This document shows, piece by piece, positions 11,774 through 20,651 of a stretch of DNA of 32,000 bases (its first letter is position 1; every line of letters starts with the position of its first letter). Below the pieces are notes generated by a model. That model was not told the DNA's origin. It did not search any database and saw only the letters and a program-made list of their open reading frames with translations. The translations under genes were made by a program, and so were the position numbers. The DNA lies in NCBI RefSeq assembly GCF_001598795.1, contig NZ_BCZP01000033.1, forward strand, positions 1 through 32,000, given 5' to 3'. The stretch comes from Delftia acidovorans NBRC 14950 (GTDB taxonomy: Bacteria; Pseudomonadota; Gammaproteobacteria; Burkholderiales; Burkholderiaceae_C).

Positions 11774-13390
11774 TTGAAGCCCGGTCTGTCGCTGCGCGTC
11801 TCCCAGCATCTTTCGCTTACTCCCCAGCTGCAGCAGTCGATACAGCTGCTGCAGCTGTCCACGCTGGAGCTGGCGCAGGAAGTGGAGCAGATGCTGGGCG
11901 ACAACCCCTTCCTGGAGCTGGCGAACGAGGAGGGCGATCACGATGCGGCTGCCGGCACCCGCGAGCCTGCCGCGCCCGGCGCCGAGGCCACGGAGTCCTT
12001 CCAGGAAAGCCGCGCAGACCAGCCTTCGGCGGCGGTGGAGTGGGAGCCCTCGTCGGACGCATCCTCCGGCGATGCCGTGGAGACTTCCGGCACGGCCGAG
12101 TCCCTGAGCTGGGAAGGCGACGGCCAGACCACCTCGGGCAACGATGACCGCGACTGGGGCAGCGATGCGCCCTCCAGCCGCACGCGCGGGCAGGGCGAGG
12201 AAGACGAGGCCGATGCCACCGAACTGGCTCGCAGCGCCGAAAGCCTGACCGACCACCTGCACCGTCAGGCCCTGAGCCTGCGCCTGGGCGAGGTGGACCG
12301 CGCCGCACTGCGCTTTCTGATCGAGAACCTCAACGATGACGGCTACCTGGAAGACCCGCTCGACGAGCTGGCACAGGGCCTGGCGGGCGACGATCTGGAG
12401 GAGTGCGAGGAACTGGTGCACCGCTTCACCGTGGCGCTGCGCCTGCTGCAAAGCCTGGAGCCCGTGGGCGTGGGCGCGCGCGACCTGGCCGAATGCCTGA
12501 CGCTGCAACTGCGCGACCATCTGGCCGATGCCGAGCGCGAAGGCAACGGCAGTGCCGAGGACGAAGACCGGCAGGCCGTGCTGCGCACCGCGCTGGACAT
12601 CTGCGCCCAGCCCATGGACCTGCTTGCGCGGCGCGACCTGCGCAAGCTCGCCAGCCTGTGCGGTGCGCGCGAGGAGCGGCTGCGCGAGGCGCTGGTGCTG
12701 ATCACCCGACTGGAGCCACGCCCGGGCCGGCGCTTTGCCGACGTGCAGCGCCAGATCGTCGTGCCCGACGTCATCGTGCGCCCCGTGCGCAGCGGCGCGG
12801 GCCGCATGGACTTCAGCGTGCAGCTCAACCCCGACGTCATGCCCAAGCTGCGCGTGCACGACATCTATGCCAGCGCGCTGCGCAGCCACAGGGGCAGCGA
12901 AGGCCATGCAGCGCTGCAGCAGCGGCTGCAGGAGGCGCGCTGGTTCATCAAGAACATCCAGCAGCGCTTCGACACCATCCTGCGCGTGTCGCAGGCCATC
13001 GTGGAGCGCCAGAAGAATTTCTTCGTGCATGGCGAGCTGGCCATGCGCCCGCTGGTGCTGCGCGACATTGCCGATGCGCTGGGCCTGCATGAATCCACCA
13101 TCAGCCGCGTGACCACGGCCAAGTACATGGCCACGCCGCAGGGCACCTACGAGCTCAAGTACTTCTTCGGCTCGGGCCTGGGCACCGAGGCCGGTGGCAA
13201 TGCCTCCAGCACTGCCGTGCGCGCGCTGATCAAGCAGTTCGTCGCGGCCGAAGATCCCAAGAAGCCGCTGTCGGACAACCAGCTCGCCGACATGCTCAAG
13301 GAGCAGGGTATCGAATGCGCGCGGCGCACGGTGGCCAAGTACCGCGAGCTGCTCAAGATCCCGCCGACCACGCTGCGCAAGGCGCTGTAG
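11774..13390 (+). CDS. rpoN: RNA polymerase sigma-54 factor
   Basis: N-terminus (M)KPGLSLRVSQHLSLTPQLQQSIQLLQLSTLEL matches RpoN region I. RpoN box ARRTVAKYR near the C-terminus. TTG start with AGGAG 7 nt upstream. Confidence 0.96.
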   Translation: MKPGLSLRVSQHLSLTPQLQQSIQLLQLSTLELAQEVEQMLGDNPFLELANEEGDHDAAAGTREPAAPGAEATESFQESRADQPSAAVEWEPSSDASSGDAVETSGTAESLSWEGDGQTTSGNDDRDWGSDAPSSRTRGQGEEDEADATELARSAESLTDHLHRQALSLRLGEVDRAALRFLIENLNDDGYLEDPLDELAQGLAGDDLEECEELVHRFTVALRLLQSLEPVGVGARDLAECLTLQLRDHLADAEREGNGSAEDEDRQAVLRTALDICAQPMDLLARRDLRKLASLCGAREERLREALVLITRLEPRPGRRFADVQRQIVVPDVIVRPVRSGAGRMDFSVQLNPDVMPKLRVHDIYASALRSHRGSEGHAALQQRLQEARWFIKNIQQRFDTILRVSQAIVERQKNFFVHGELAMRPLVLRDIADALGLHESTISRVTTAKYMATPQGTYELKYFFGSGLGTEAGGNASSTAVRALIKQFVAAEDPKKPLSDNQLADMLKEQGIECARRTVAKYRELLKIPPTTLRKAL

Positions 13391-13428: not shown

Positions 13429-15036
13429 CTATGGCGTTCGACCGGCCACGGCATCCCACTTCAAGCCGAATTTCAGCAGGTACTTGCGCAGGCGGTCGGC
13501 ATCGTTGACCACGCTGCGCTGGGTGCGTGACTGGTCGAACAGACGGCGCCCCGCATCGGACAGCGAAGGTGACTCCCGGCACACGCGCAGCACCGCTTCG
13601 AGCTGCATGCGGTCGAACAGATCCAGCGGCTCCAGCACTTCGGCAGACAGCAGGCTTTGCAGGCTGGCGCCGGCCGGTTGCACGGCATCGCCTCTTTGCC
13701 ACAGCCACTTCAGGCGCTGGATCTCGGCATCGACCAGGGCCGTGGAGATGCGCCCCCCGTCGGCCAGCGTCGCCAGGCGCGTCATGCTGGCCGACAGGTC
13801 GCGGAAGTTGCCGCTCCACAGCGCCTCGGGCGAGCGCGCAAAGCGCAGATAGCGCTCGCGGGCCTCTACGTTGAAGCGCACCATCTGGCCAGTCTCGTCG
13901 GCCGAGCGCGCGAGCAGGTGGTCCATGTTGGGTTCTATGTCCTCGGGGCGCCCGGCCAGGCCCGGCAGCGCGTAGGACCACAGGTTGATGCGCGCGAACA
14001 AATCCTCGCGAAAGCGCCCCTGCGCCACGTCGATGCGCAGGTCGCGGTGCGTGCCGGCGACCAGCTGGAAGTCGCTGCTGACCTCGCGGTCGCTGCCCAT
14101 GGGATAGAAGCGCCTTTCCTCCACCGCCTTGAGCAGCATGGCCTGTTCGTCCAGCCCCAGCTCGCCGATTTCGTCCAGGAACAGCACGCCCTGGTGCGCG
14201 CTGCGCAGCAGGCCGGCGCGGTCGGCCGCAGCGCCCGTGAACGCCCCCTTCTTGTGGCCGAACAGCACCGAAGCCGCTCCATCGCCGCGCAGCGTGGCGC
14301 AATTGACCTCCACGAAGTCGCCCTGCACCTGGTGCCTGGCCTTCTTCAACTCGTACATGCGCCGCGCCAGATGCGACTTGCCCGCGCCCGTGGGACCCGT
14401 GAGCAGGATGGGCGCGCGCGAGCGCACGGCCACGCGCTCGATCTCGTCGATCAGCGCGTTGAACCCGGCATTGCGCGTGGCGATGCCGCTCTTGAGAAAT
14501 TGCACGGCCTCGCTCTGCTCGGCGCCGAAGCGCTGGGCGATCACGTCGTAGCGCGACAGGTCCAGGTCGATCAGCGCATAGCTGCCCGGGTCGCCCATGC
14601 GCTGGCGCCGGGGCGGCGAGGTCTGGGCCAGCACGCCGGGAATGCGGCGCGACTCCACCAGCAGGAACAGGCAGATCTGTGCCACGTGCGTGCCCGTGGT
14701 GATGTGCGTCCAGTACTCCTCGCGCTCGGGGTCGAAGCGGTAGGCCTGCGTCCAGTCGAACAGCCGCGCATAGACCTCGCCGAAATCCCAGGGATCGGCA
14801 ATGTCCATGGGCACGAGGTTCACCTGGGTCTCGGGCGATGCCGTGGCGATGTCGCCCTGCAGCAGCTGCGCCAGGGCCAGATGGGGCGGCGTGTAGAGCA
14901 GCTCCAGCCGCTCCACCACCAGATCCTCGTGCTGCATGAGGGAGAGGGTCGGCCGCCATTTTTCCCAGCGCCCCGCGCCCCTGCCGGAGTCCAGCTGCGT
15001 ACCCAGAAAGCCGATGACGACCTTTTTCTTTTCCAT
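13429..15036 (-). CDS. rtcR: Sigma-54-dependent transcriptional activator RtcR (CARF + AAA+ + HTH)
   Basis: 535 aa. The N-terminal ~185 aa are RtcR/CARF-like (MEKKKVVIGFLGTQLD...). Walker A GPTGAGKS and the sigma54-contact motif GAFTGA are present. Divergent from a sigma54 promoter and an rtcB/rtcA operon. Confidence 0.93.
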   Translation of the reverse strand: MEKKKVVIGFLGTQLDSGRGAGRWEKWRPTLSLMQHEDLVVERLELLYTPPHLALAQLLQGDIATASPETQVNLVPMDIADPWDFGEVYARLFDWTQAYRFDPEREEYWTHITTGTHVAQICLFLLVESRRIPGVLAQTSPPRRQRMGDPGSYALIDLDLSRYDVIAQRFGAEQSEAVQFLKSGIATRNAGFNALIDEIERVAVRSRAPILLTGPTGAGKSHLARRMYELKKARHQVQGDFVEVNCATLRGDGAASVLFGHKKGAFTGAAADRAGLLRSAHQGVLFLDEIGELGLDEQAMLLKAVEERRFYPMGSDREVSSDFQLVAGTHRDLRIDVAQGRFREDLFARINLWSYALPGLAGRPEDIEPNMDHLLARSADETGQMVRFNVEARERYLRFARSPEALWSGNFRDLSASMTRLATLADGGRISTALVDAEIQRLKWLWQRGDAVQPAGASLQSLLSAEVLEPLDLFDRMQLEAVLRVCRESPSLSDAGRRLFDQSRTQRSVVNDADRLRKYLLKFGLKWDAVAGRTP

Positions 15037-15165: not shown

Positions 15166-15181
15166 TGGCACGCATCTCGCA
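15166..15181 (+). promoter_or_regulatory. Sigma-54 (-24/-12) promoter of the rtc operon
   Basis: TGGCACGCATCTCGCA versus consensus TGGCACG-N4-TTGCW. GG and GC are at the correct 10-nt spacing, with one deviation (TCGC for TTGC). Expected TSS near 15191. Confidence 0.8.
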
Positions 15182-15320
15182 ATAACCAAGGCATCCAGTG
15201 CAGGCGGTGACCGCTCACAGGCCGGGGTTGGGGCAAAGGCCCGCCCCGCCGGTGCTGGAAGTCCGGGCCCTCAGGGGCTTGTCGATTTCCCGCATGCCGC
15301 ACGCCGCAAGCGCTGGGTAA

Positions 15321-15382
15321 CGGCAAGGTTGTGGAAACCGTCTCGCAAGGGACGCCTGGTTCGACTCCAGGCTTGCCAGCCA
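15321..15382 (+). ncRNA. tRNA-like module A (mini tRNA mimic ending in encoded GCCA)
   Basis: Acceptor-like stem 15322-15327 GGCAAG / 15372-15377 CTTGCC (15321 C opposite 15378 A). T-arm CCTGG (15355-59) / TTCGACT / CCAGG (15367-71). Short stem GTCTC/GGGAC capped by GCAA (15340-15353). Small GTT/AAC hairpin with a GUGGA loop. 3' tail G-CCA at 15379-15382. Confidence 0.45.
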
Positions 15383-15448
15383 CTGGTAGCTCAGTCTGGT
15401 AGAGCACCCTCGCAAGAGGACTGTCGCAGGTTCGATTCCTGTCCACTC
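15383..15448 (+). ncRNA. tRNA-like module B (Y-RNA/YrlA-style tRNA mimic; not a decoding tRNA)
   Basis: TA-GCTC-AGTCTGGTA-GAGC (15387-15405) is a textbook U8-A9 + D-arm. GCAGG-TTCGATT-CCTGT (15426-15442) is a textbook T-arm, with a 5-nt variable region CTGTC. The anticodon arm is replaced by CCTC-GCAA-GAGG (15408-15419, GNRA tetraloop). Only a 3-bp acceptor-like pairing is available (TGG 15384-86 / CCA 15443-45). Confidence 0.65.
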
Positions 15449-15450
15449 TT

Positions 15451-15489
15451 CCGGCCGTAAGGCCGGGCTATTGAAACGGTCGAAAGACC
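15451..15489 (+). ncRNA. Two further GNRA-capped hairpins in the rtc leader
   Basis: CCGGCC-GTAA-GGCCGG (15451-15466) and GGTC-GAAA-GACC (15478-15489). With modules A and B this makes four GNRA tetraloop hairpins within about 150 nt. Confidence 0.45.
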
Positions 15490-15733
15490 ACCCGCCGAAC
15501 GCGGGAGGTGGCCACCGGGTTGCGATGCAGCCCAAGGCCCCCACCCGTCAGCGGCGGCGGCTGTGCCAGGTCCCGGCACGGTCCGCGCCCGCAGCCAGCC
15601 ACGCTGCAACCTGTTTCCAGGGTTGCCGCCACGGCGCACTGCAAGGCCCGGGCCGTGCCCCCTGGAACCCCGCCGCTGCTGTAACGGCACCCCTATTGAT
15701 TGCGGCGAAGACGCCGAACGAGGAGAAGAAGAA

Positions 15734-16873
15734 ATGCTGAAGATCCAACGCATCACCATCAAGAAGAACGAACGCGCCCTGCTGCTGCGCAATGGCGATT
15801 TCGAGCGCGTGCTGCACAGCGGCCGGCACTGGCTGTTTGCCGGCACCGACCAGTTGCGCGTGGAAACCTTTGCCCTGGAGCAGCCCGCCTTCACGCACGG
15901 CCTGGCCGACTACCTGATGGCCCAGGAGCCCGCCGTGGTGGCCGCCGAATTCCTGCGTGTGGAACTGTCCGAGACCGAGGCGGGCCTGCGCAGCGAAAAC
16001 GGCGTGCTGGTCGAGATCCTGCCGCCCGGCACGCGCCGCCTGTACTGGAAGGGACTGGTGGATGTGAGCGTGCAGGTGGTCGACCTGCAGGCCGGCGCCG
16101 AGCTGCCCGCCGCCCTGGCAGCGCGCCTGACCCAGACGCAGCTGCGCCAGCGCAGCGTGTCCGGCCTCAACGGCGTGCTGCAGGTGCAGGTGCTCGCAGG
16201 CCAGTGCGCGCTGCTGACCATCGACGGAAAGGTGGACCGCCTGCTGCAGGCCGGCAGCCATGCGTTCTGGAAGTTCGGCCGCAGCATTGCCGTGGAGCTG
16301 GTGGACCTGCGCCTGCAGGCCGTCGAGGTCTCGGGCCAGGACATCATGACCCGCGACAAGGTCAGCCTGCGCCTGAACCTGAGCGCCACCTATCGCCACA
16401 CCGAGGTTCTGCGCGCCTTTGCCCAGCTGCAAAAGCCTGCCGAGCACCTGTACCGCGAACTGCAGTTCGCACTGCGCGCCGCCGTGGGCACCCGCACGCT
16501 TGATGAGCTGCTGGAGAACAAGACGGTGATCGATGACGTGGTGACCGCGCACATGGCGGCCAAGCTGCAGCCCTTCGGCATGGTGGTGGAGAGTGTGGGC
16601 GTGAAGGACATCGTGCTGCCCGGCGAGATGAAGGCCATCCTGACCCAGGTGGTGCAGGCCGAAAAGCAGGCCCAGGCCAACGTGATCCGCCGCCGCGAGG
16701 AAACGGCCGCCACGCGCTCGCTGCTCAACACGGCCAAGGTCATGGAGGACAACCCCGTGGCCCTGCGCATGAAGGAGCTGGAGACGCTGGAGCGCGTGGC
16801 CGAGCGCATCGACAAGATCTCCGTGTTCGGCGGGCTGGATCAGGTGCTCAACGGGCTGGTGAAGATGCGTTGA
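15734..16873 (+). CDS. SPFH/band-7 (slipin-like) protein with an N-terminal extension and no TM segment
   Basis: ATG 15734 preceded by GAGGAG. The C-terminal ~230 aa are SPFH-like (QDIMTRDKVSLRLNLSATYR..., VGVKDIVLPGEMKAILTQVVQAEKQAQANV). First CDS of the sigma54-driven operon. Confidence 0.85.
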   Translation: MLKIQRITIKKNERALLLRNGDFERVLHSGRHWLFAGTDQLRVETFALEQPAFTHGLADYLMAQEPAVVAAEFLRVELSETEAGLRSENGVLVEILPPGTRRLYWKGLVDVSVQVVDLQAGAELPAALAARLTQTQLRQRSVSGLNGVLQVQVLAGQCALLTIDGKVDRLLQAGSHAFWKFGRSIAVELVDLRLQAVEVSGQDIMTRDKVSLRLNLSATYRHTEVLRAFAQLQKPAEHLYRELQFALRAAVGTRTLDELLENKTVIDDVVTAHMAAKLQPFGMVVESVGVKDIVLPGEMKAILTQVVQAEKQAQANVIRRREETAATRSLLNTAKVMEDNPVALRMKELETLERVAERIDKISVFGGLDQVLNGLVKMR

Positions 16874-16929: not shown

Positions 16930-17427
16930 ATGGCCGCATTCGAAGAACTATGGAGCTATGAGGTGGGCAAGGCGGGCTGGGCGACGTTGAAGTTCAGCAC
17001 GCCCGAGGAGGACCTGGTGTGTGCCGTGTCCTACCTGCATGATTCGCTGGGTGATCTGGCCGCCATGGCGCTGGCCTTGGCCAAGGGCGCGCACCGCGCT
17101 GCCGCCGTGTTCATGGACGAGCCCGGCGAAGTGCACCTGAGCATGGAGGGTGACCGCGACACCCTTTCCTACGAGCTGCGGCAGTACGCGGACTGGGCCA
17201 GCTGGGGCATCACCGCCATGGATGACTATGAAGTGCTGGCCCGTGGGCAGGTGGCCCGCGAGGACGTGGTGCGCAGCGTGTACCGCGTGCTGGACGGTAT
17301 TTATTGCGGCATGGGTGTAGAGGAATACAGAAAGCGCTGGCTGGAGCATGAATTCCCGCTGCGGGACTATCAAAGCCTGGGCAGCGCCATCCGCAAGCGG
17401 GACCTGTCTCGCCTGATGCGTGGATGA
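16930..17427 (+). CDS. Hypothetical protein (165 aa, acidic, no recognisable domain)
   Basis: ATG 16930 with AGAGAGG upstream. Codon usage in line with neighbouring genes. Sits tightly between the SPFH gene and rtcB. Confidence 0.7.
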   Translation: MAAFEELWSYEVGKAGWATLKFSTPEEDLVCAVSYLHDSLGDLAAMALALAKGAHRAAAVFMDEPGEVHLSMEGDRDTLSYELRQYADWASWGITAMDDYEVLARGQVAREDVVRSVYRVLDGIYCGMGVEEYRKRWLEHEFPLRDYQSLGSAIRKRDLSRLMRG

Positions 17428-17486
17428 GCCGCGCGGCAGCAAGACCTAAACAAGACGAACAGACAAGAAGACTGAAGGACAACGCA

Positions 17487-18704
17487 ATGAACTACCTGCA
17501 ACACAACGTGGAAAACGGCGTCCCCATCAAGATGTGGACCAAGGGTGTGCCCGTCGAGGACGAGGCGCGCAAGCAGCTGGAGAACGCCGCGCGCCTGCCC
17601 GTGGTGTTCAAGCATGTCGCGGCCATGCCCGATGTGCACCTGGGCATAGGCGCCACCGTGGGCTCGGTGATCCCGACCATCAAGGCCATCATCCCGGCGG
17701 CCGTGGGCGTGGACATCGGCTGCGGAATGATGGCCGCCAAGACCACGCTGCGCGCCGAGGACCTGCCCGACAACCTGGGCCCGCTGCGCTCGGCGATAGA
17801 GCAGGCCGTGCCGCATGGCTCGGTGCCGCGCCACCGGGGCCGTGATCCCGGCAGCTGGGAAAACCCGCCCGTGTCGGTGGACCAGGTCTGGGCCACGCTG
17901 GCCGATGAGTTCGACCTGCTGTGCGAGCTGCATCCACGCCTGGCCAACACCAACAACCGCAAGCACCTGGGAACGCTGGGCAGCGGCAACCACTTCATCG
18001 AGATCTGCCTGGACGAGGCGGGCTTCGTGTGGTTCATGCTGCACTCGGGCTCGCGCGGCGTGGGCAATGCCATCGGCACCCATTTCATCGAGCTGGCCAA
18101 GAAGGATGCAGAACTCCATCAGCGCAACCTGCCCGACAAGGATCTGGCCTATTTCGAGGAAGGGGCCCGCTACTTTGGCGACTATGTGCGCGGCGTGTCC
18201 TGGGCGCAGAAGTTCGCCATGCGCAACCGCGAGGTGATGATGGCCAACCTCATCGCCACGGTGCGCAAGGTGATCGCCAAGCCCTTCGAGTCGCATGTGG
18301 AGGCGGTGAACTGCCACCACAACTACGTGCAGCAGGAGCGCCATTTCGGGCAGGACGTGTTCATCACCCGCAAGGGCGCGGTGAGCGCGCGGCGCGGCGA
18401 GCTGGGCATCATCCCGGGCAGCATGGGCGCGCGCAGCTACATCGTGCGCGGCCTGGGCAACCCGGAGAGCTTCGAGAGCTGCAGCCACGGTGCGGGCCGC
18501 GTGATGAGCCGGACCAAGGCCAAGAAGATGTTCAGCGTGGAGGACCACATCAAGGCCACCGAGGGCGTGGAATGCCGCAAGGATGCGAATGTGGTGGACG
18601 AGATTCCCATGGCCTACAAGGACATCGATGCGGTCATGGCCGCGCAGCAGGATCTGGTCGAGGTGGTGCACACCCTGAAGCAAGTGGTGTGCGTGAAAGG
18701 GTGA
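17487..18704 (+). CDS. rtcB: RNA-splicing ligase RtcB (3'-phosphate/5'-OH RNA ligase)
   Basis: 405 aa. MNYLQHNVENGVPIKMWTKGVPVEDEARKQL... followed by MPDVHLGIGATVG, GCGMMA, GSGNHFIE, HSGSRG, NCHHNY and SCSHGAGR motifs typical of RtcB. Confidence 0.96.
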   Translation: MNYLQHNVENGVPIKMWTKGVPVEDEARKQLENAARLPVVFKHVAAMPDVHLGIGATVGSVIPTIKAIIPAAVGVDIGCGMMAAKTTLRAEDLPDNLGPLRSAIEQAVPHGSVPRHRGRDPGSWENPPVSVDQVWATLADEFDLLCELHPRLANTNNRKHLGTLGSGNHFIEICLDEAGFVWFMLHSGSRGVGNAIGTHFIELAKKDAELHQRNLPDKDLAYFEEGARYFGDYVRGVSWAQKFAMRNREVMMANLIATVRKVIAKPFESHVEAVNCHHNYVQQERHFGQDVFITRKGAVSARRGELGIIPGSMGARSYIVRGLGNPESFESCSHGAGRVMSRTKAKKMFSVEDHIKATEGVECRKDANVVDEIPMAYKDIDAVMAAQQDLVEVVHTLKQVVCVKG

Positions 18705-18706
18705 GT

Positions 18707-18756
18707 GGATGAGGGCCCCGGGCTCTCATCCTCCAGAACAGAAAGCAGGATGAGAG
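18707..18756 (+). promoter_or_regulatory. Three-arm alternative RNA pairing overlapping the SD of the nucleotidyltransferase gene
   Basis: GGATGAGGG (18707-18715), CTCTCATCC (18723-18731), GGATGAGAG (18748-18756). The middle arm pairs perfectly (9 bp) with the third arm. The third arm overlaps the AGGA SD (18747-50) and ends 1 nt before ATG 18758. The middle arm can also pair with the first arm, which starts 3 nt after the rtcB stop. Confidence 0.4.
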
Positions 18757-18757
18757 C

Positions 18758-19579
18758 ATGAGGGAAGAGAAGGTATTGAGCGCGCATCCGGTCTCCGACG
18801 CCATGCGCGCCACGGTGCTGGCCAACCTGGTCGAGGTGGAGCGCAGGCACGAGGTCACGGTGCTGTTTGCCTGCGAGTCGGGCAGCCGCGGCTGGGGCTT
18901 TGCCTCGCCCGACAGCGACTATGACGTGCGCTTCATCTATGTCCACCGCCTGCCCTGGTATCTGACCGTGGCGCCGGGCCGCGATGTCATAGAGCAGCCG
19001 CTCAGCGGCGAGCTCGATGTCAGCGGCTGGGAGCTGCGCAAGGCGCTGGGGCTGCTGCGCGCCTCCAACCCCACGCTGCTTGAATGGCTGCGCTCGCCCG
19101 TGGTCTACCGGCAGGAGCAGCCCTGGGCCGAGCGCCTGCATCTGCTGGCCGAGCAGGGCTTTTCGCCGGTGCGCGGCTACCACCACTACGTGGCCATGGC
19201 GCGCAAGAACCTGCGCGCCCACCTGCAGAGCGATGTCGTGCGCTACAAGAAATACTTCTACGTGCTGCGCCCCTTGCTGGCCGCGCGCTGGATACGCGAG
19301 GGGCGCGGTGCGCCGCCCATGCGCTTTGCACAGCTGGCGGCGGGCACGCTGGAGGATGCAGGCCTGCTGGCCGAGCTCAACGAGCTGCTGGAGCTCAAGA
19401 TGCGCCTGGGCGAGGCCGCCAAGGGGCCGCGCCGGGTGCGCGTCCATGATTTCCTGGAGCGCGAGCTGGCCCATGCCATGGCCCATGCGCCGGATCCGGG
19501 GTACCAGGCCGATGCGGCGCCGCTGGACCGCTATCTGCGGGATGCCGTGGCGCGCTTTGGCGGCAATTGGCGGCAATGA
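18758..19579 (+). CDS. Pol-beta-fold nucleotidyltransferase (RNA-repair-associated predicted NTase family)
   Basis: 273 aa. ACESGSRGWGFASPDSDYDVRF fits the hG[GS]-x9-13-DxD nucleotidyltransferase signature. Located between rtcB and rtcA. Confidence 0.8.
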   Translation: MREEKVLSAHPVSDAMRATVLANLVEVERRHEVTVLFACESGSRGWGFASPDSDYDVRFIYVHRLPWYLTVAPGRDVIEQPLSGELDVSGWELRKALGLLRASNPTLLEWLRSPVVYRQEQPWAERLHLLAEQGFSPVRGYHHYVAMARKNLRAHLQSDVVRYKKYFYVLRPLLAARWIREGRGAPPMRFAQLAAGTLEDAGLLAELNELLELKMRLGEAAKGPRRVRVHDFLERELAHAMAHAPDPGYQADAAPLDRYLRDAVARFGGNWRQ

Positions 19580-19592
19580 ATGAAAGAGAAAA

Positions 19593-20651
19593 ATGAAAGT
19601 GATCGAGATCGACGGCTCCGCCGGGGAGGGCGGAGGCCAGATGCTGCGCAGCGCGCTGGCGCTGTCCATGTGCACGGGCCAGCCCTTTGCCATGCAGCGC
19701 ATCCGTGCCGGGCGCGCCAAGCCGGGCCTGATGCGCCAGCACCTGGCCTGCGTCAATGCCGCCGCCGAAATCTGCGGCGCGCAGATGCAGGGCGCCGAGA
19801 TGAATTCCCAGGCGCTGCAATTTGCGCCGGGGCCGGTGCGTGCGGGCGAGTACCGCTTCGTGATCGCCTCGGCGGGCAGTTGCACCCTGCTGCTGCAGAC
19901 GCTGTGGCCCGCGCTGATGCTGGCCAATGGCGAAAGCCGCCTGACCCTGGGCGGCGGCACCCACAACCCGGCCGCGCCGCCCTTCCACTTCCTGGAGCGC
20001 AGCTATGCGCCGCTGCTGCACAGGCTGGGCGCCCGCTGCGAACTGCGGCTGCGCCGGCTGGGCTTTTATCCGGCCGGTGGCGGCGAGATGGACGTGACGA
20101 TCACGCCGGCAACCAACGGGCTGGTGCCTTTCGATATCACCGAACGCGGCGCGCCCGTGGCCAGCCATGCCGAATGCTTTGCGCCCGCGCTGCCACGCGC
20201 GGTGGCCCAGCGCGAACTGGACCATCTGGGCGAGGCCCTGGGCTGGTCTGGCGAGCAGCTGCAGGTGGCTGCCGTGCGCCAGAACGAGGGGCCGGGCAAC
20301 GCGCTGCTGGCCACGCTGGCCTATGAGCACCTGAGCGAAGTGTTCACGCAGTTCGGCATGAAGGGCGTCAGCGCCGAAAAGGTGGCGCATGACCTGGCGC
20401 GCGAGGTGCGCCGCCACCAGGGCAGCCGGGCCGCGCTGGGCCCGTACCTGGCCGACCAATGGGCCCTGCCGCTGGCGCTGGCCGTCTGGCGCAGCGGGCG
20501 CGCTGCCAGCTACACCTGCACGGAACTGACGCCGCATGCTCGCAGCAATTTCGAGGTGATCGAGCGCTTTGTGCCTGTGCGCTTTGTGCCCGTGCGCCTT
20601 ATCACGGACGCAACGGGCGACGGCTGGCGTGTTTCGCTCTCGCCAGCCTGA
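19593..20651 (+). CDS. rtcA: RNA 3'-terminal phosphate cyclase
   Basis: 352 aa. MKVIEIDGSAGEGGGQMLRSALALSM...RAGRAKPGLMRQHL matches the RtcA N-terminus, including the conserved His region. Confidence 0.95.
   Translation: MKVIEIDGSAGEGGGQMLRSALALSMCTGQPFAMQRIRAGRAKPGLMRQHLACVNAAAEICGAQMQGAEMNSQALQFAPGPVRAGEYRFVIASAGSCTLLLQTLWPALMLANGESRLTLGGGTHNPAAPPFHFLERSYAPLLHRLGARCELRLRRLGFYPAGGGEMDVTITPATNGLVPFDITERGAPVASHAECFAPALPRAVAQRELDHLGEALGWSGEQLQVAAVRQNEGPGNALLATLAYEHLSEVFTQFGMKGVSAEKVAHDLAREVRRHQGSRAALGPYLADQWALPLALAVWRSGRAASYTCTELTPHARSNFEVIERFVPVRFVPVRLITDATGDGWRVSLSPA
20566..20595 (+). repeat. 15-bp in-frame tandem duplication inside rtcA
   Basis: GCTTTGTGCCTGTGC (20566-20580) followed by GCTTTGTGCCCGTGC (20581-20595), one mismatch. 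Encodes RFVPV-RFVPV. Confidence 0.9.

What the first reader, a model, noticed from the sequence alone, without database searches (positions are those of the whole stretch)
15321..15382. Second, minimal tRNA-like module directly upstream, ending in a genomically encoded GCCA
- **Predicted fold (about 62 nt):** a 6-bp acceptor-like helix (GGCAAG/CTTGCC) can stack on a 5-bp T-stem that carries the canonical T-loop TTCGACT. There is a GTCTC-GCAA-GGGAC stem with the same GCAA cap as module B, and a tiny hairpin with a GUGGA loop that could supply the D-loop GG for elbow formation.
- **3' end:** the 3' strand is followed by A, G, CCA. That is a tRNA-like discriminator-CCA end, with the terminal position being a C opposite an A.
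- **Junction with module B:** the CCA abuts the 5' side of module B. RNase P-type cleavage 5' of module B would therefore release module A with a near-mature CCA end.
- **Overall:** two consecutive mimics with the same GCAA anticodon-arm replacement argue for design rather than chance. The arrangement recalls the paired yrlB-yrlA organisation in Salmonella.
Basis: seen in the sequence. Interest (0 to 1): 0.65.

Follow-up and report, generated by a model that had tools for sequence, protein, structure and literature searches.

The report
Miniature tRNA mimic in repair-operon leader
A real, evolutionarily conserved 62-base miniature tRNA look-alike sits directly in front of a second tRNA look-alike at the start of a bacterial RNA-repair operon; it is a shrunken member of a class of 'Band-7-associated' tRNA-like RNAs that was predicted by computer and has not been tested experimentally.

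Summary
Window 15321-15382 folds into a mini-cloverleaf:
- a 6-bp acceptor helix;
- a 3-bp D-like hairpin with a GUGGA loop;
- a GCAA-capped stem;
- a canonical T-arm, followed by A-G-CCA.

Seventy-four of the 80 related Burkholderiales loci fetched carry the same two-module element upstream of the same SPFH/Band-7 gene. Every helix covaries: the acceptor is 98% paired, with compensatory changes at 6 of 6 pairs. A tertiary co-change (D-like loop G to A together with T-loop U55 to G) follows a rule that I also found in genuine tRNAs.

The window is Delftia. The element lies in a roughly 540-nt structured leader of a sigma-54/RtcR-controlled operon: SPFH, a small ORF, RtcB, RlaP, RtcA.

Module B is the 'b7a-tRNA' predicted by Burroughs and Aravind (2016). 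Module A is the miniaturised upstream member of a tandem set. Gammaproteobacteria have two or three full-size abutting tRNA-like modules. Burkholderia keeps only an acceptor/T-arm minihelix.

It is not a YrlA Y RNA: there is no Rsr, and the Rfam score is 29 against a threshold of 69.

Processing by RNase P and use as a Band-7/RtcB cofactor are inferred, not shown.

Verdict: a new variant of a known but untested kind, of moderate interest.

The parts
15166..15181 (+). sigma-54-type promoter-like site TGGCACGCATCTCGCA (GG and GC elements); probable RtcR-dependent start of the leader about 12 nt downstream
   Evidence: Only match to TGGCAC-N7-GCW in the window. It faces the divergent rtcR gene. 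Equivalent TGGCAC sites lie upstream of the tRNA-like modules in Burkholderia, Citrobacter, Photobacterium, Shewanella and Pseudoalteromonas loci. Function is inferred.
15195..15318 (+). conserved structured 5' domain of the leader, upstream of module A
   Evidence: RNAalifold on 17 leaders predicts nested helices with compensatory changes (alignment columns 25-152).
15321..15382 (+). module A: miniature tRNA-like domain (the finding)
15322..15327 (+). module A acceptor-like helix, 5' strand GGCAAG (pairs with 15372-15377)
   Evidence: 100% paired on the MAFFT alignment, with 3 of 6 pairs changed on both sides. 98.4% paired with 6 of 6 pairs covarying over 73 sequences.
15328..15338 (+). module A D-like mini hairpin (3 bp, loop GUGGA)
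   Evidence: 100% paired, 2 of 3 pairs covary. 96.5% paired, 3 of 3 covary. GG is retained in the loop. GG to AG occurs only together with T-loop U to G.
15339..15354 (+). module A anticodon-arm substitute: 6-bp stem capped by GCAA
   Evidence: A hairpin is present at this position in all relatives. It is GNRA-capped with at least 3 bp in 47 of 73 sequences, with 14 different inner stems. The inner pairs are 97.5% paired.
15355..15371 (+). module A T-arm (5 bp, loop UUCGACU)
   Evidence: 98% paired, and 4 of 5 pairs covary. T-loop positions are invariant or nearly so.
15372..15377 (+). module A acceptor-like helix, 3' strand CUUGCC
15378..15382 (+). A (opposite C15321), discriminator-like G, then genomically encoded CCA
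   Evidence: CCA is present 1-2 nt after the 6-bp acceptor in 62-63 of 73 distinct relatives. The preceding base is A in 43, G in 10, U in 6 and C in 3.
15384..15445 (+). module B: the b7a-tRNA-like module. It has a 3-bp acceptor stub UGG/CCA, a canonical D-arm, a GCAA-capped anticodon stem and a T-arm.
   Evidence: Rfam tRNA 29.9 bits against a gathering score of 29. All arms covary or are invariant. ARAGORN calls it a tRNA, with inconsistent anticodons, in relatives.
15451..15466 (+). GNRA-capped hairpin CCGGCC-GUAA-GGCCGG
   Evidence: Predicted with covariation (columns 292-303).
15478..15505 (+). two invariant hairpins, GGUC-GAAA-GACC and CCCGC-CGAAC-GCGGG
   Evidence: Invariant in 17 of 17 leaders and retained in distant Burkholderiales. 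Both match the low-information GNCGAANG motif.
15545..15688 (+). long, conserved 3' domain of the leader (CCGUCAGCGGCGG ... CCGCUGCUGUAACGG)
   Evidence: columns 408-572. The whole leader 15193-15733 has z = -5.2.
13429..15036 (-). rtcR (CARF-type RtcR domain plus sigma-54 activator domain), divergent regulator
   Evidence: Pfam RtcR 1e-80, Sigma54_activat 1.5e-48.
15734..16873 (+). SPFH/Band-7 (slipin) gene, first ORF after the leader
   Evidence: Pfam Band_7 2e-31. No transmembrane helix in the AF2 model.
17424..20651 (+). rtcB (17424-18704), rlaP (18758-19579), rtcA (19593-20651)
   Evidence: Pfam RtcB 2e-126, RlaP 4e-98, RTC 5e-74.

Best explanation
Module A is a genuine, selectively maintained tRNA mimic. 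An acceptor helix is stacked on a T-arm. It carries a vestigial D-arm whose GG docks on the T-loop, and a GNRA-capped stub in place of the anticodon arm.

It is the miniaturised upstream member of a tandem set of tRNA-like modules. The last of these, module B, is the predicted 'Band-7-associated tRNA'. The set forms the core of the roughly 540-nt structured leader of the SPFH/Band-7-RtcB RNA-repair operon.

It most likely descends from a tandem tRNA gene pair.

Inferred mechanism:
- The leader is transcribed from the RtcR/sigma-54 promoter.
- Because module A has the standard RNase P determinants (T-loop, an 11-12-bp coaxial stack, G at +1, 3' NCCA), it is cut at its 5' side.
- It is separated from module B at or next to the CCA. 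Trimming or CCA addition then gives a stable CCA-ended mini-tRNA of about 60 nt.
- The tRNA-like RNAs then act with the cytosolic Band-7 protein and RtcB as a tRNA-shaped cofactor, scaffold or decoy, much as Y RNAs act with Ro/Rsr.

Shown: the fold, its conservation, the tertiary contact, and co-occurrence with the Band-7 gene.
Inferred: processing, stability, and protein binding.
For: Fold:
- MFE of the isolated module.
- Independent RNAalifold prediction.
- Covariation on a structure-blind alignment and on 73 distinct sequences.
- The rival thermodynamic fold lacks covariation.

Elbow:
- D-like loop G to A co-occurs with T-loop U55 to G in exactly 3 of 3 variants (L007, L019, L031).
- 20 of 26 genuine tRNAs with a UGCRA T-loop likewise have AG instead of GG in the D-loop.

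CCA: present in 62-63 of 73 sequences.

Tandem design is general:
- Two modules in 74 of the 80 Burkholiales loci fetched (Burkholderiales). Three of the other six lack enough upstream sequence to judge.
- Three abutting tRNA-like modules in Shewanella and Paraglaciecola, with the last one again carrying a 3-bp acceptor.
- A full tRNA-like module A in Photobacterium, and a minihelix-only module A in Burkholderia.

Link to Band-7 rather than to RtcR or RtcB:
- Relatives with no nearby rtcR, rtcA or rlaP keep A-B, Band_7 and RtcB.
- Enterobacterial rtcR-slipin-nucleotidyltransferase loci without rtcB keep a T-arm minihelix.

Precedents:
- b7a-tRNA is described as the Band-7 counterpart of YrlA.
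- M. smegmatis YrlA is cut by RNase P and receives CCA.

There is no intrinsic terminator between module B and the SPFH gene.
Against: - No RNA-end, expression or binding data exist for this RNA.
- Module B's acceptor is only 3-5 bp in most species, so it is a poor canonical RNase P substrate. The 12-bp measuring rule would cut before, not after, the CCA in the window.
- CCA is lost by single substitutions in about 15% of Burkholderiales sequences. It is absent at this junction in Gammaproteobacteria and Burkholderia, so a CCA end cannot be essential to the class.
- One locus (L053) has precisely lost module A while keeping B, and L055 has a decayed T-stem.
- Nearest-neighbour energy of A plus B favours another fold by 7 kcal/mol.
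- The modules are embedded in a much larger conserved leader. They might therefore never be released and could act as T-loop tertiary-structure modules of one large RNA.
Confidence: 0.55

Rival explanations
1. Module A is purely a cis-acting processing and stability element ('tRNA punctuation'). It recruits RNase P and tRNA 3'-end enzymes to cut the long leader (or, in relatives, the upstream tRNA array and HNH mRNA) away from the SPFH-rtcB mRNA. The released piece has no job of its own.
For: - It has the same RNase P determinants as in the best explanation.
- It directly abuts the next module, as in polycistronic tRNA operons.
- In many relatives it follows a tRNA array and an HNH gene on the same strand.
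- Its internal arms shrink freely between lineages: full D-arm, then mini hairpin, then a 4-nt bulge. This fits a role that needs only the acceptor/T-arm stack.
Against: - The D-like hairpin and its GG/T-loop contact are kept under selection in more than 70 Burkholderiales species. That is more than RNase P needs from a minihelix.
- The element tracks the Band-7 gene across phyla, whatever lies upstream.
Confidence: 0.22
2. The modules are never released. A and B are T-loop/tRNA-shaped architectural domains of one large (about 540-nt) structured leader RNA that regulates or scaffolds as a whole.
For: - The whole leader is strongly structured (z = -5.2).
- It has several further conserved helices and invariant hairpins on both sides of A-B.
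- Motifs upstream (CAUGCCGC) and downstream recur across phyla.
- Module B lacks a full acceptor.
Against: - The modules keep tRNA-specific features that an architectural T-loop does not need: a 6-7-bp acceptor, NCCA, the D-loop GG rule, and a canonical D-arm in B.
- The flanking domains are replaced or absent in other lineages while the modules persist.
Confidence: 0.15
3. It is a YrlA/YrlB-type Y RNA that works with an Rsr (Ro60) protein.
For: - Sub-threshold YrlA match at 15328-15433 (29.4 bits).
- It sits in an RtcR-controlled operon with RtcB, like Salmonella rsr-yrlBA-rtcBA.
- Two GNCGAANG motif matches lie just downstream.
Against: - The score is far below the gathering score of 69, and the match joins the T-arm of A to the D-arm of B.
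- The closed acceptor hairpin that defines the permuted YrlA layout cannot form. The 3' strand pairs instead with an upstream 5' strand, with strong covariation.
- No TROVE/Rsr gene is in the operon, or among the ten other flanking ORFs scanned on either side of it (2286-23293).
- The motif is common by chance: 28 found against 21 expected.
Confidence: 0.03
4. It is a decaying tRNA pseudogene or relic, or a chance hairpin cluster, with no function.
For: - It probably descends from a tRNA gene.
- One MAG lacks it and one shows decay.
- ARAGORN and Rfam do not call it.
Against: - Compensatory changes keep all four helices paired at 96-98% across families, while primary sequence diverges almost completely in the acceptor.
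- Invariant T-loop.
- Tertiary co-change between the D-like loop and the T-loop.
Confidence: 0.02
5. It is a chargeable or decoding mini-tRNA (aminoacylated minihelix), or a tRNA/CCA-sensing riboswitch of the T-box type.
For: Acceptor, T-arm and NCCA are the elements needed for minihelix charging or CCA recognition.
Against: - There is no anticodon loop.
- Acceptor sequence and discriminator vary freely, so no conserved identity set exists.
- There is no terminator/antiterminator alternative and no UGGN partner.
Confidence: 0.03

Closest known systems
[quoted passage not shown]
   Same: - Same genomic niche: immediately upstream of a Band-7/SPFH gene next to rtcB.
- tRNA-like fold with canonical T-loop.
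- Not a decoding tRNA.
- Module B of this window is that RNA. Module A is its direct upstream neighbour and shares the T-arm/acceptor design.
   Different: - Module A lacks a real D-arm and anticodon loop, is only about 57-62 nt, ends in NCCA, and keeps a full-length acceptor that module B lacks.
[quoted passage not shown] I could not check whether tandem or miniature modules were described.
YrlA / YrlB bacterial Y RNAs (Rfam RF02553; Chen et al. 2014, PMC4201824)
   Same: - tRNA-mimicking non-coding RNAs in RtcR-controlled rtcB operons.
- Two RNAs in tandem, the smaller also carrying a T-arm.
- M. smegmatis YrlA is cut by RNase P and gains CCA.
   Different: - YrlA is a circularly permuted mimic: T-arm, closed acceptor hairpin, D-arm, inside a Ro-binding stem, and it partners with Rsr.
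- Here each module has its own open acceptor, there is no Rsr, and the model score is below threshold.
Polycistronic bacterial tRNA genes with encoded CCA
   Same: - Acceptor/T-arm stack, T-loop, the D-loop GG / T-loop contact, discriminator plus CCA, and head-to-tail abutment.
- Relatives carry genuine tRNA arrays just upstream.
   Different: - No anticodon loop, a 3-bp D-stem, no variable region, and a 6-bp acceptor in most Comamonadaceae.
- Not detected by ARAGORN or by the Rfam tRNA model.
Reduced tRNA-like domains: the tmRNA tRNA-like domain, arm-less mitochondrial tRNAs, mascRNA-type tRNA-like small RNAs (from general knowledge)
   Same: An acceptor plus T-arm core with a reduced D region. 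Recognition by RNase P and CCA enzymes is the known mode of biogenesis for such mimics.
   Different: Different genomic context and partners. No tag reading frame (ARAGORN finds no tmRNA).

Membership tests
Band-7-associated tRNA-like RNA (b7a-tRNA class) | Encoded immediately upstream of, and on the same strand as, an SPFH/Band-7 gene that neighbours rtcB | tested here: met
   Module A lies 352 nt upstream of the SPFH start, in the same leader as module B. The same position holds in 74 Burkholderiales loci and in Gammaproteobacteria.
Band-7-associated tRNA-like RNA (b7a-tRNA class) | tRNA-like fold with conserved T-arm, non-conserved 'anticodon' | tested here: met
   Invariant T-loop and covarying acceptor and T-stem. 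The anticodon arm is replaced by a capped stem.
Band-7-associated tRNA-like RNA (b7a-tRNA class) | 'Strongly resembles an authentic tRNA' (full cloverleaf with D-arm) | tested here: not met
   This holds for module B and for the module-A equivalents in Photobacterium and Shewanella. It does not hold for module A in the window: 3-bp D-like hairpin, no anticodon loop, no ARAGORN or Rfam call. I therefore file it as a reduced variant, not a typical member.
Band-7-associated tRNA-like RNA (b7a-tRNA class) | Physical or functional association with the Band-7 protein | not testable with these tools
   Only co-occurrence is available.
Canonical tRNA (Rfam RF00005) | Score at or above the gathering threshold, or an ARAGORN call | tested here: not met
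   No hit over 15321-15382.
Canonical tRNA (Rfam RF00005) | 7-bp acceptor, 5-bp T-stem, 7-nt T-loop UUCRANY | tested here: inconclusive
   T-arm fully met. The acceptor is 6 bp plus a C-A mismatch in the window, 7 bp in other Delftia and in many relatives.
Canonical tRNA (Rfam RF00005) | D-loop G18/G19 to T-loop 55/56 tertiary contact | tested here: met
   GG retained. A co-change of G to A with U55 to G occurs in 3 of 3 variants, and 20 of 26 real tRNAs with G55 follow the same rule. This is comparative evidence only.
Canonical tRNA (Rfam RF00005) | 7-nt anticodon loop | tested here: not met
   GCAA tetraloop. GNRA or other short caps in relatives.
YrlA Y RNA (Rfam RF02553) | Score at or above the gathering threshold (69 bits) | tested here: not met
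   29.4 bits.
YrlA Y RNA (Rfam RF02553) | Permuted layout: T-arm, closed acceptor hairpin, D-arm, enclosed by a stem formed from the 5' and 3' ends | tested here: not met
   The segment between T-arm A and D-arm B does not form a conserved hairpin. Its 5' part pairs with 15322-15327, with covariation.
YrlA Y RNA (Rfam RF02553) | Encoded within about 4 kb of an Rsr/Ro60 (TROVE) gene | tested here: not met
   No TROVE domain in the operon or in the flanking genes scanned between 2286 and 23293.
YrlA Y RNA (Rfam RF02553) | GNCGAAN0-1G motif | tested here: inconclusive
   Matches at 15479 and 15494 lie in invariant hairpins, but the motif is frequent by chance: 28 found against 21 expected.

The most novel reading that the evidence does not exclude
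The leader of Band-7-RtcB operons encodes a previously uncharacterised multi-module ribonucleoprotein RNA.

In this reading, tandem tRNA mimics are cut out by RNase P. They include a CCA-ended mini-tRNA of about 60 nt (module A) and a truncated-acceptor tRNA (module B). They are then loaded into a ring or cage built by a cytosolic SPFH protein with a vault-like architecture, where they present or template damaged tRNAs to RtcB and RlaP.

In sister lineages the same unit is fused to an inducible array of spare tRNA genes and an HNH nuclease gene. This would be a bacterial 'tRNA emergency kit'.
Probability: 0.15. Interest if true: 0.8.

Novelty: new variant of a known kind. Interest (0 to 1): 0.5.

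Why it matters
RtcB/RtcA repair operons are widespread and respond to tRNA damage. The role of their associated tRNA-like RNAs (Y RNAs with Rsr, b7a-tRNA with Band-7) is still open, and b7a-tRNA had not been validated experimentally as of the 2018 preprint that cites it; no later study turned up in my searches.

This analysis shows four things:
- The Band-7 leader carries a conserved tandem of tRNA mimics.
- The upstream mimic can be shrunk to an acceptor/T-arm core while keeping the tRNA elbow.
- In Burkholderiales it ends in an encoded CCA.
- The last module always has a truncated acceptor.

Together these give precise, cheap experimental handles: predicted ends at 15321 and 15379-15383, elbow mutants, RNase P assays, and pull-downs with the SPFH protein. 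The data also provide a seed alignment for a new RNA family that Rfam 15 lacks.

Tried and rejected
1. YrlA membership. Rejected on score, layout and absence of Rsr.
2. The thermodynamically preferred rival fold of A plus B (GGCA with UGUC, CUUGCC with GGUAG). Rejected because its covariation is no better than shuffles.
3. Plain MAFFT alignment of all relatives. It misaligned the 5' half of module A between lineages. I replaced it with a covariance model built from the well-aligned Comamonadaceae subset. That alignment is fitted to the structure, so I also report the structure-blind counts and the independent RNAalifold prediction.
4. Metagenome scan for module-A variants with a UGCRA T-loop. 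It returned only ordinary tRNA tandems; all scored below 55 bits with the model. It was useless for finding more A-B elements, but the genuine tRNAs it returned served as a control for the A18/G55 rule.
5. The search for homologous proteins with the window's SPFH protein. It listed only relatives at 76% identity or above. Distant loci came instead from the plasmid collection and from a second search seeded with the Photobacterium protein.
6. Phage collection. No SPFH homologue.
7. Burroughs and Aravind 2016 could not be opened by DOI, PMC id or PubMed id. Whether they described a second module therefore remains unchecked.
8. Automated hairpin parsing of the anticodon-arm substitute was noisy where bulges occur. 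I replaced it with a GNRA-anchored count.
9. A 7th acceptor pair and aminoacylation identity elements. No conserved identity set was found.
Full report
**1. What is in the sequence**

Window 15321-15382 (+) reads CGGCAAG-GUUGUGGAAAC-CGUCUCGCAAGGGACG-CCUGGUUCGACUCCAGG-CUUGCC-AGCCA.
- a 6-bp acceptor-like helix (15322-15327 with 15372-15377);
- a 3-bp hairpin with a GUGGA loop (15328-15338);
- a 6-bp stem capped by GCAA (15339-15354);
- a 5-bp T-stem with the canonical loop UUCGACU (15355-15371);
- the tail A, G, CCA (15378-15382), with C15321 opposite A15378.

The isolated 62-mer adopts exactly this three-way junction as its minimum-free-energy fold (-27.2 kcal/mol, 70% of the ensemble, z = -2.5). 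The T-arm core GGTTCRANTCC occurs twice in 32 kb, in this module and in the next one, against 0.07 expected. ARAGORN finds no tRNA in the window. Rfam's tRNA model just reaches threshold on the neighbouring module B (15384-15445; 29.9 bits against 29) and does not see module A.

**2. Genomic setting**

The element lies in a 700-nt gap. On one side is a divergent rtcR gene (13429-15036, minus strand). On the other is an operon encoding:
- an SPFH/Band-7 'slipin' protein (15734-16873);
- a small accessory ORF;
- RtcB (17424-18704);
- the RlaP nucleotidyltransferase (18758-19579);
- RtcA (19593-20651).

A sigma-54-type site, TGGCACGCATCTCGCA, sits at 15166-15181. No terminator-like site on the leader's own strand separates the modules from the SPFH gene; the single site reported is on the opposite strand. 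Upstream of rtcR lie lptA, lptB and rpoN. No TROVE/Rsr gene is found among the genes scanned by Pfam between 2286 and 23293, which cover the operon and both of its flanks. The SPFH protein is 99% identical to that of Delftia tsuruhatensis.

**3. Comparative test of the fold**

The SPFH protein retrieved 80 loci from one-genome-per-species Burkholderiales. A sequence profile of 15300-15470 hits 76 of them at the same distance upstream of the SPFH gene.

On a structure-blind MAFFT alignment of 27 Comamonadaceae sequences:
- the acceptor is 100% paired, with three of six pairs changed on both sides (for example AU 10, CG 9, UA 4, GC 2 at one position);
- the tiny hairpin is 100% paired, with two of three pairs covarying;
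- the T-arm is 98.5% paired;
- slid-partner controls give 35-47% paired.

RNAalifold run on whole leaders predicts the acceptor, the mini hairpin and the T-arm of module A without being told.

I built a covariance model from the 27 sequences. It finds the complete two-module element in the window and in 74 of the 80 loci. On the resulting alignment of 73 distinct sequences:
- the acceptor is 98.4% paired, with all six pairs covarying (for example CG 42, UA 13, GC 9, AU 5);
- the D-like hairpin is 96.5% paired, with 3 of 3 pairs covarying;
- the T-arm is 98.1% paired;
- slid controls give 41-50% paired.

This alignment is fitted to the model, so it leans towards the structure. The acceptor strands are nevertheless plainly different words in different genera: GGCAAG/CUUGCC, GGUGAUG/CAUCACC, GGGCGGC/GCCGCCC, GAACGAU/AUCGUUC.

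The anticodon-arm substitute is always a hairpin. It is GNRA-capped with at least three pairs in 47 of 73 sequences, with 14 different inner stems.

**4. A tertiary signal**

In the alignment, the loop of the mini hairpin keeps GG (GUGGW, UGGA, GGA, CGG). Exactly three sequences (L007, L019, L031) have AG instead: GCAGU or GUAGU in place of GUGGU. They are exactly the three whose T-loop reads UGCGA or UGCAA instead of UUCGA. These are the positions of G18 and U55 in tRNA.

As a control I looked at genuine tRNAs with a UGCRA T-loop, collected by a metagenome scan. Twenty of 26 ARAGORN-validated examples have AG rather than GG in the D-loop. Module A therefore obeys the same elbow rule as real tRNAs.

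The three variants represent one or two independent events, so this is supportive evidence, not proof.

**5. The rival fold**

Nearest-neighbour folding of A plus B (15321-15449) prefers another structure by 7 kcal/mol. In it, GGCA pairs with UGUC of module B, and CUUGCC pairs with the start of the D-arm. The acceptor pairs get a probability of 0.01. The same happens for 15300-15470 and for the whole leader.

On the structure-blind alignment those rival helices show no covariation: score 0.052 against 0.057 for shuffles, with 481 of 500 shuffles at least as high. They break where the acceptor varies. I therefore reject the rival fold. I note that tRNA-like multibranch folds are commonly under-predicted by energy models (general knowledge).

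**6. The 3' tail and the junction**

CCA follows the 6- or 7-bp acceptor after one discriminator-like base in 62-63 of 73 distinct sequences. The preceding base is A in 43, G in 10, U in 6 and C in 3. The exceptions are single substitutions (CAA, CUA, ACA, CCU, CCC). The tail is thus under constraint but is not invariant.

Module B starts immediately afterwards: C, then UGG(A), then U8-A9 and a canonical D-arm. Its acceptor is only 3-5 bp (UGG/CCA, UGGA/UCCA), and 7 bp in one species (L057).

Counting seven nucleotides back from U8 places position +1 of module B on C15380. A canonical RNase P cut would therefore leave module A ending at G15379, ready for CCA addition. A cut at the base of the real 3-bp helix would leave ...CCAC, to be trimmed.

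**7. What it belongs to**

The discussion of the YrlA structure preprint states the following. [quoted passage not shown] This RNA was predicted by Burroughs and Aravind (2016) and was not validated experimentally. Module B is that RNA. The original paper could not be opened, so I cannot say whether a second module was reported.

The sub-threshold YrlA match (29.4 bits against 69) pairs the T-arm of A with the D-arm of B. This is precisely the dimeric-tRNA artefact that Chen et al. excluded. The defining closed acceptor hairpin and the Rsr neighbour are both absent.

**8. Wider distribution**

More distant SPFH loci show that tandem tRNA-like modules are the rule:
- Shewanella algae and Paraglaciecola have three abutting modules of 71-75 nt between rtcR and Band_7. 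ARAGORN calls all three tRNAs, with anticodons that disagree between species. The last again has only a 3-bp acceptor (AGG/CCU). The preceding one has a 7-bp acceptor, discriminator A and no CCA.
- Photobacterium has a full-size module A with a D-arm.
- Burkholderia multivorans has only a 6-bp acceptor, a 4-nt bulge and a T-arm.
- Pseudoalteromonas and the Firmicute Subdoligranulum have a GNRA hairpin plus a T-arm.
- Enterobacterial rtcR-slipin-nucleotidyltransferase loci, present in 1629 of 5426 complete E. coli genomes, keep a single T-arm minihelix and no module B.

Module A of the window is thus one point on a miniaturisation series whose constant core is the acceptor/T-arm stack.

Within Burkholiales (Burkholderiales), one MAG (L053) has precisely lost module A while keeping B, one locus (L055) has a decayed T-stem, and one (L059) has a truncated B.

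**9. Which partner?**

Two observations bear on this:
- Many non-Comamonadaceae Burkholderiales have no rtcR within reach. In the one such genome examined over a 10-kb flank (L206), no rtcR, rtcA or rlaP lies nearby, yet A-B, Band_7 and RtcB are kept.
- The enterobacterial loci lack rtcB but keep a T-arm minihelix with the slipin gene.

The most constant companion of the tRNA-like modules is therefore the Band-7 protein. This agrees with the cofactor idea of Burroughs and Aravind as reported.

The AF2 model of the protein (pLDDT 77) has no transmembrane helix. It has a beta-rich N-terminal part, an SPFH domain and long C-terminal helices. Foldseek matches stomatin, HflK and prohibitin rings and, over its full length, major vault protein. 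That hints at a soluble ring or cage, but it says nothing direct about RNA binding.

**10. Most likely mechanism**

- Shown: a conserved tRNA-shaped domain with a tRNA-like elbow, an encoded NCCA, a tandem arrangement, and linkage to Band-7.
- Established for related systems: RNase P separates closely spaced tRNAs in polycistronic transcripts (general knowledge), and it cuts M. smegmatis YrlA, which then receives CCA.
- Inferred: the leader is made from the RtcR/sigma-54 promoter. Module A is excised as a CCA-ended RNA of about 60 nt. The tRNA-like RNAs work with the Band-7 protein and RtcB as a tRNA-shaped cofactor, scaffold or decoy.

The main rivals are:
- a pure processing or stability signal;
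- non-released architectural domains of one large leader RNA. The whole leader has z = -5.2 and several other conserved domains.

**11. Novelty and score**

The class (tRNA-like RNA with Band-7/RtcB) is known from a computational prediction and is absent from Rfam 15. The miniature, CCA-ended upstream module, its elbow covariation and the tandem rule with a truncated last module are not described in the literature I could reach. They are variations on the known theme.

I rate this as a new variant of a known kind, interest 0.5. It is solid, testable and useful for an open question about RNA-repair cofactors, but it is not a new principle.

Noticed in passing
L038:810-1846, L039:825-1883, L055:719-1892, L043, L047, L058, L060, L079, L057, L040, L037; L206:8076-8768: In many non-Comamonadaceae Burkholderiales (Roseateles, Rubrivivax, Piscinibacter, Ramlibacter, Caldimonas and others), an array of 4-10 bona fide tRNA genes lies on the same strand just upstream of the A-B tandem. 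They score 50-65 bits with Rfam and include Gly, Glu, Ala, Asp, Arg, Pro, His, Leu, Gln, Lys, Met, Trp and others. Neither rtcR, rtcA nor rlaP is nearby in the one genome examined over a wider flank (L206). This could be a spare-tRNA set coupled to RtcB repair.
   Followed up: partly
L038:1893-2467; L206:8830-9405: An HNH-endonuclease ORF of about 190 aa (Pfam HNH) sits between the tRNA array and the A-B tandem in those loci. Its role is unknown.
   Followed up: no
window 15195-15318 and 15545-15688: The leader has two further conserved structured domains flanking the tRNA-like modules, with compensatory changes. The whole 541-nt leader has a folding z-score of -5.2. No Rfam family matches it.
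   Followed up: partly
window 15478-15505 (also 15713-15720): Two invariant hairpins, GGUC-GAAA-GACC and CCCGC-CGAAC-GCGGG, each contain a match to the GNCGAAN0-1G motif proposed for Rsr recognition in YrlA and YrlB. The motif is too short to be significant alone: 28 in the window against 21 expected.
   Followed up: partly
window 15734-16873 (protein model m68ad4bfe6a57): The SPFH/slipin protein has no predicted transmembrane helix. Its full-length AF2 model matches major vault protein (beta repeats, SPFH shoulder and cap helix; E about 5e-11) as well as stomatin, HflK and prohibitin rings. It may be a soluble ring- or cage-forming SPFH protein.
   Followed up: partly
window 16930-17424: A 165-aa ORF with no Pfam match lies between the SPFH gene and rtcB. 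Among the 80 loci it is found only in Delftia (L001) and one Acidovorax (L018). Other relatives have only about 80 nt there. It is an accessory insertion in the operon.
   Followed up: partly
window 11774-13390 and 13429-15036: rpoN (sigma-54), at the end of the lptA-lptB-rpoN cluster, is the immediate convergent neighbour of the sigma-54-dependent activator gene rtcR.
   Followed up: no
L081:3480-4000, L085:3540-4000: About 30% of complete E. coli genomes (1629 of 5426), and also Citrobacter, carry an rtcR-slipin-nucleotidyltransferase locus near lysC. It has no rtcB, and its leader has a single T-arm minihelix (GAUGA...UGGGUUCGAUUCCCA...UCAUC). No RNA feature is annotated under the leader (the match overlaps only the slipin CDS) in the RefSeq records listed.
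   Followed up: partly
L086-L165 (metagenome contigs): Genuine tRNAs with a UGCRA T-loop (G55) are not rare in metagenomic tRNA arrays. They mostly carry AG instead of GG in the D-loop (20 of 26), which is an A18/G55 tertiary covariation.
   Followed up: partly
L053:2588-2771: One MAG has a clean deletion of module A, from the acceptor 5' strand through the discriminator. It leaves ...GAUA-CCAC-UGUUGGA-UAGCUCAG, so the CCA-like linker and module B remain. An assembly artefact is not excluded.
   Followed up: no
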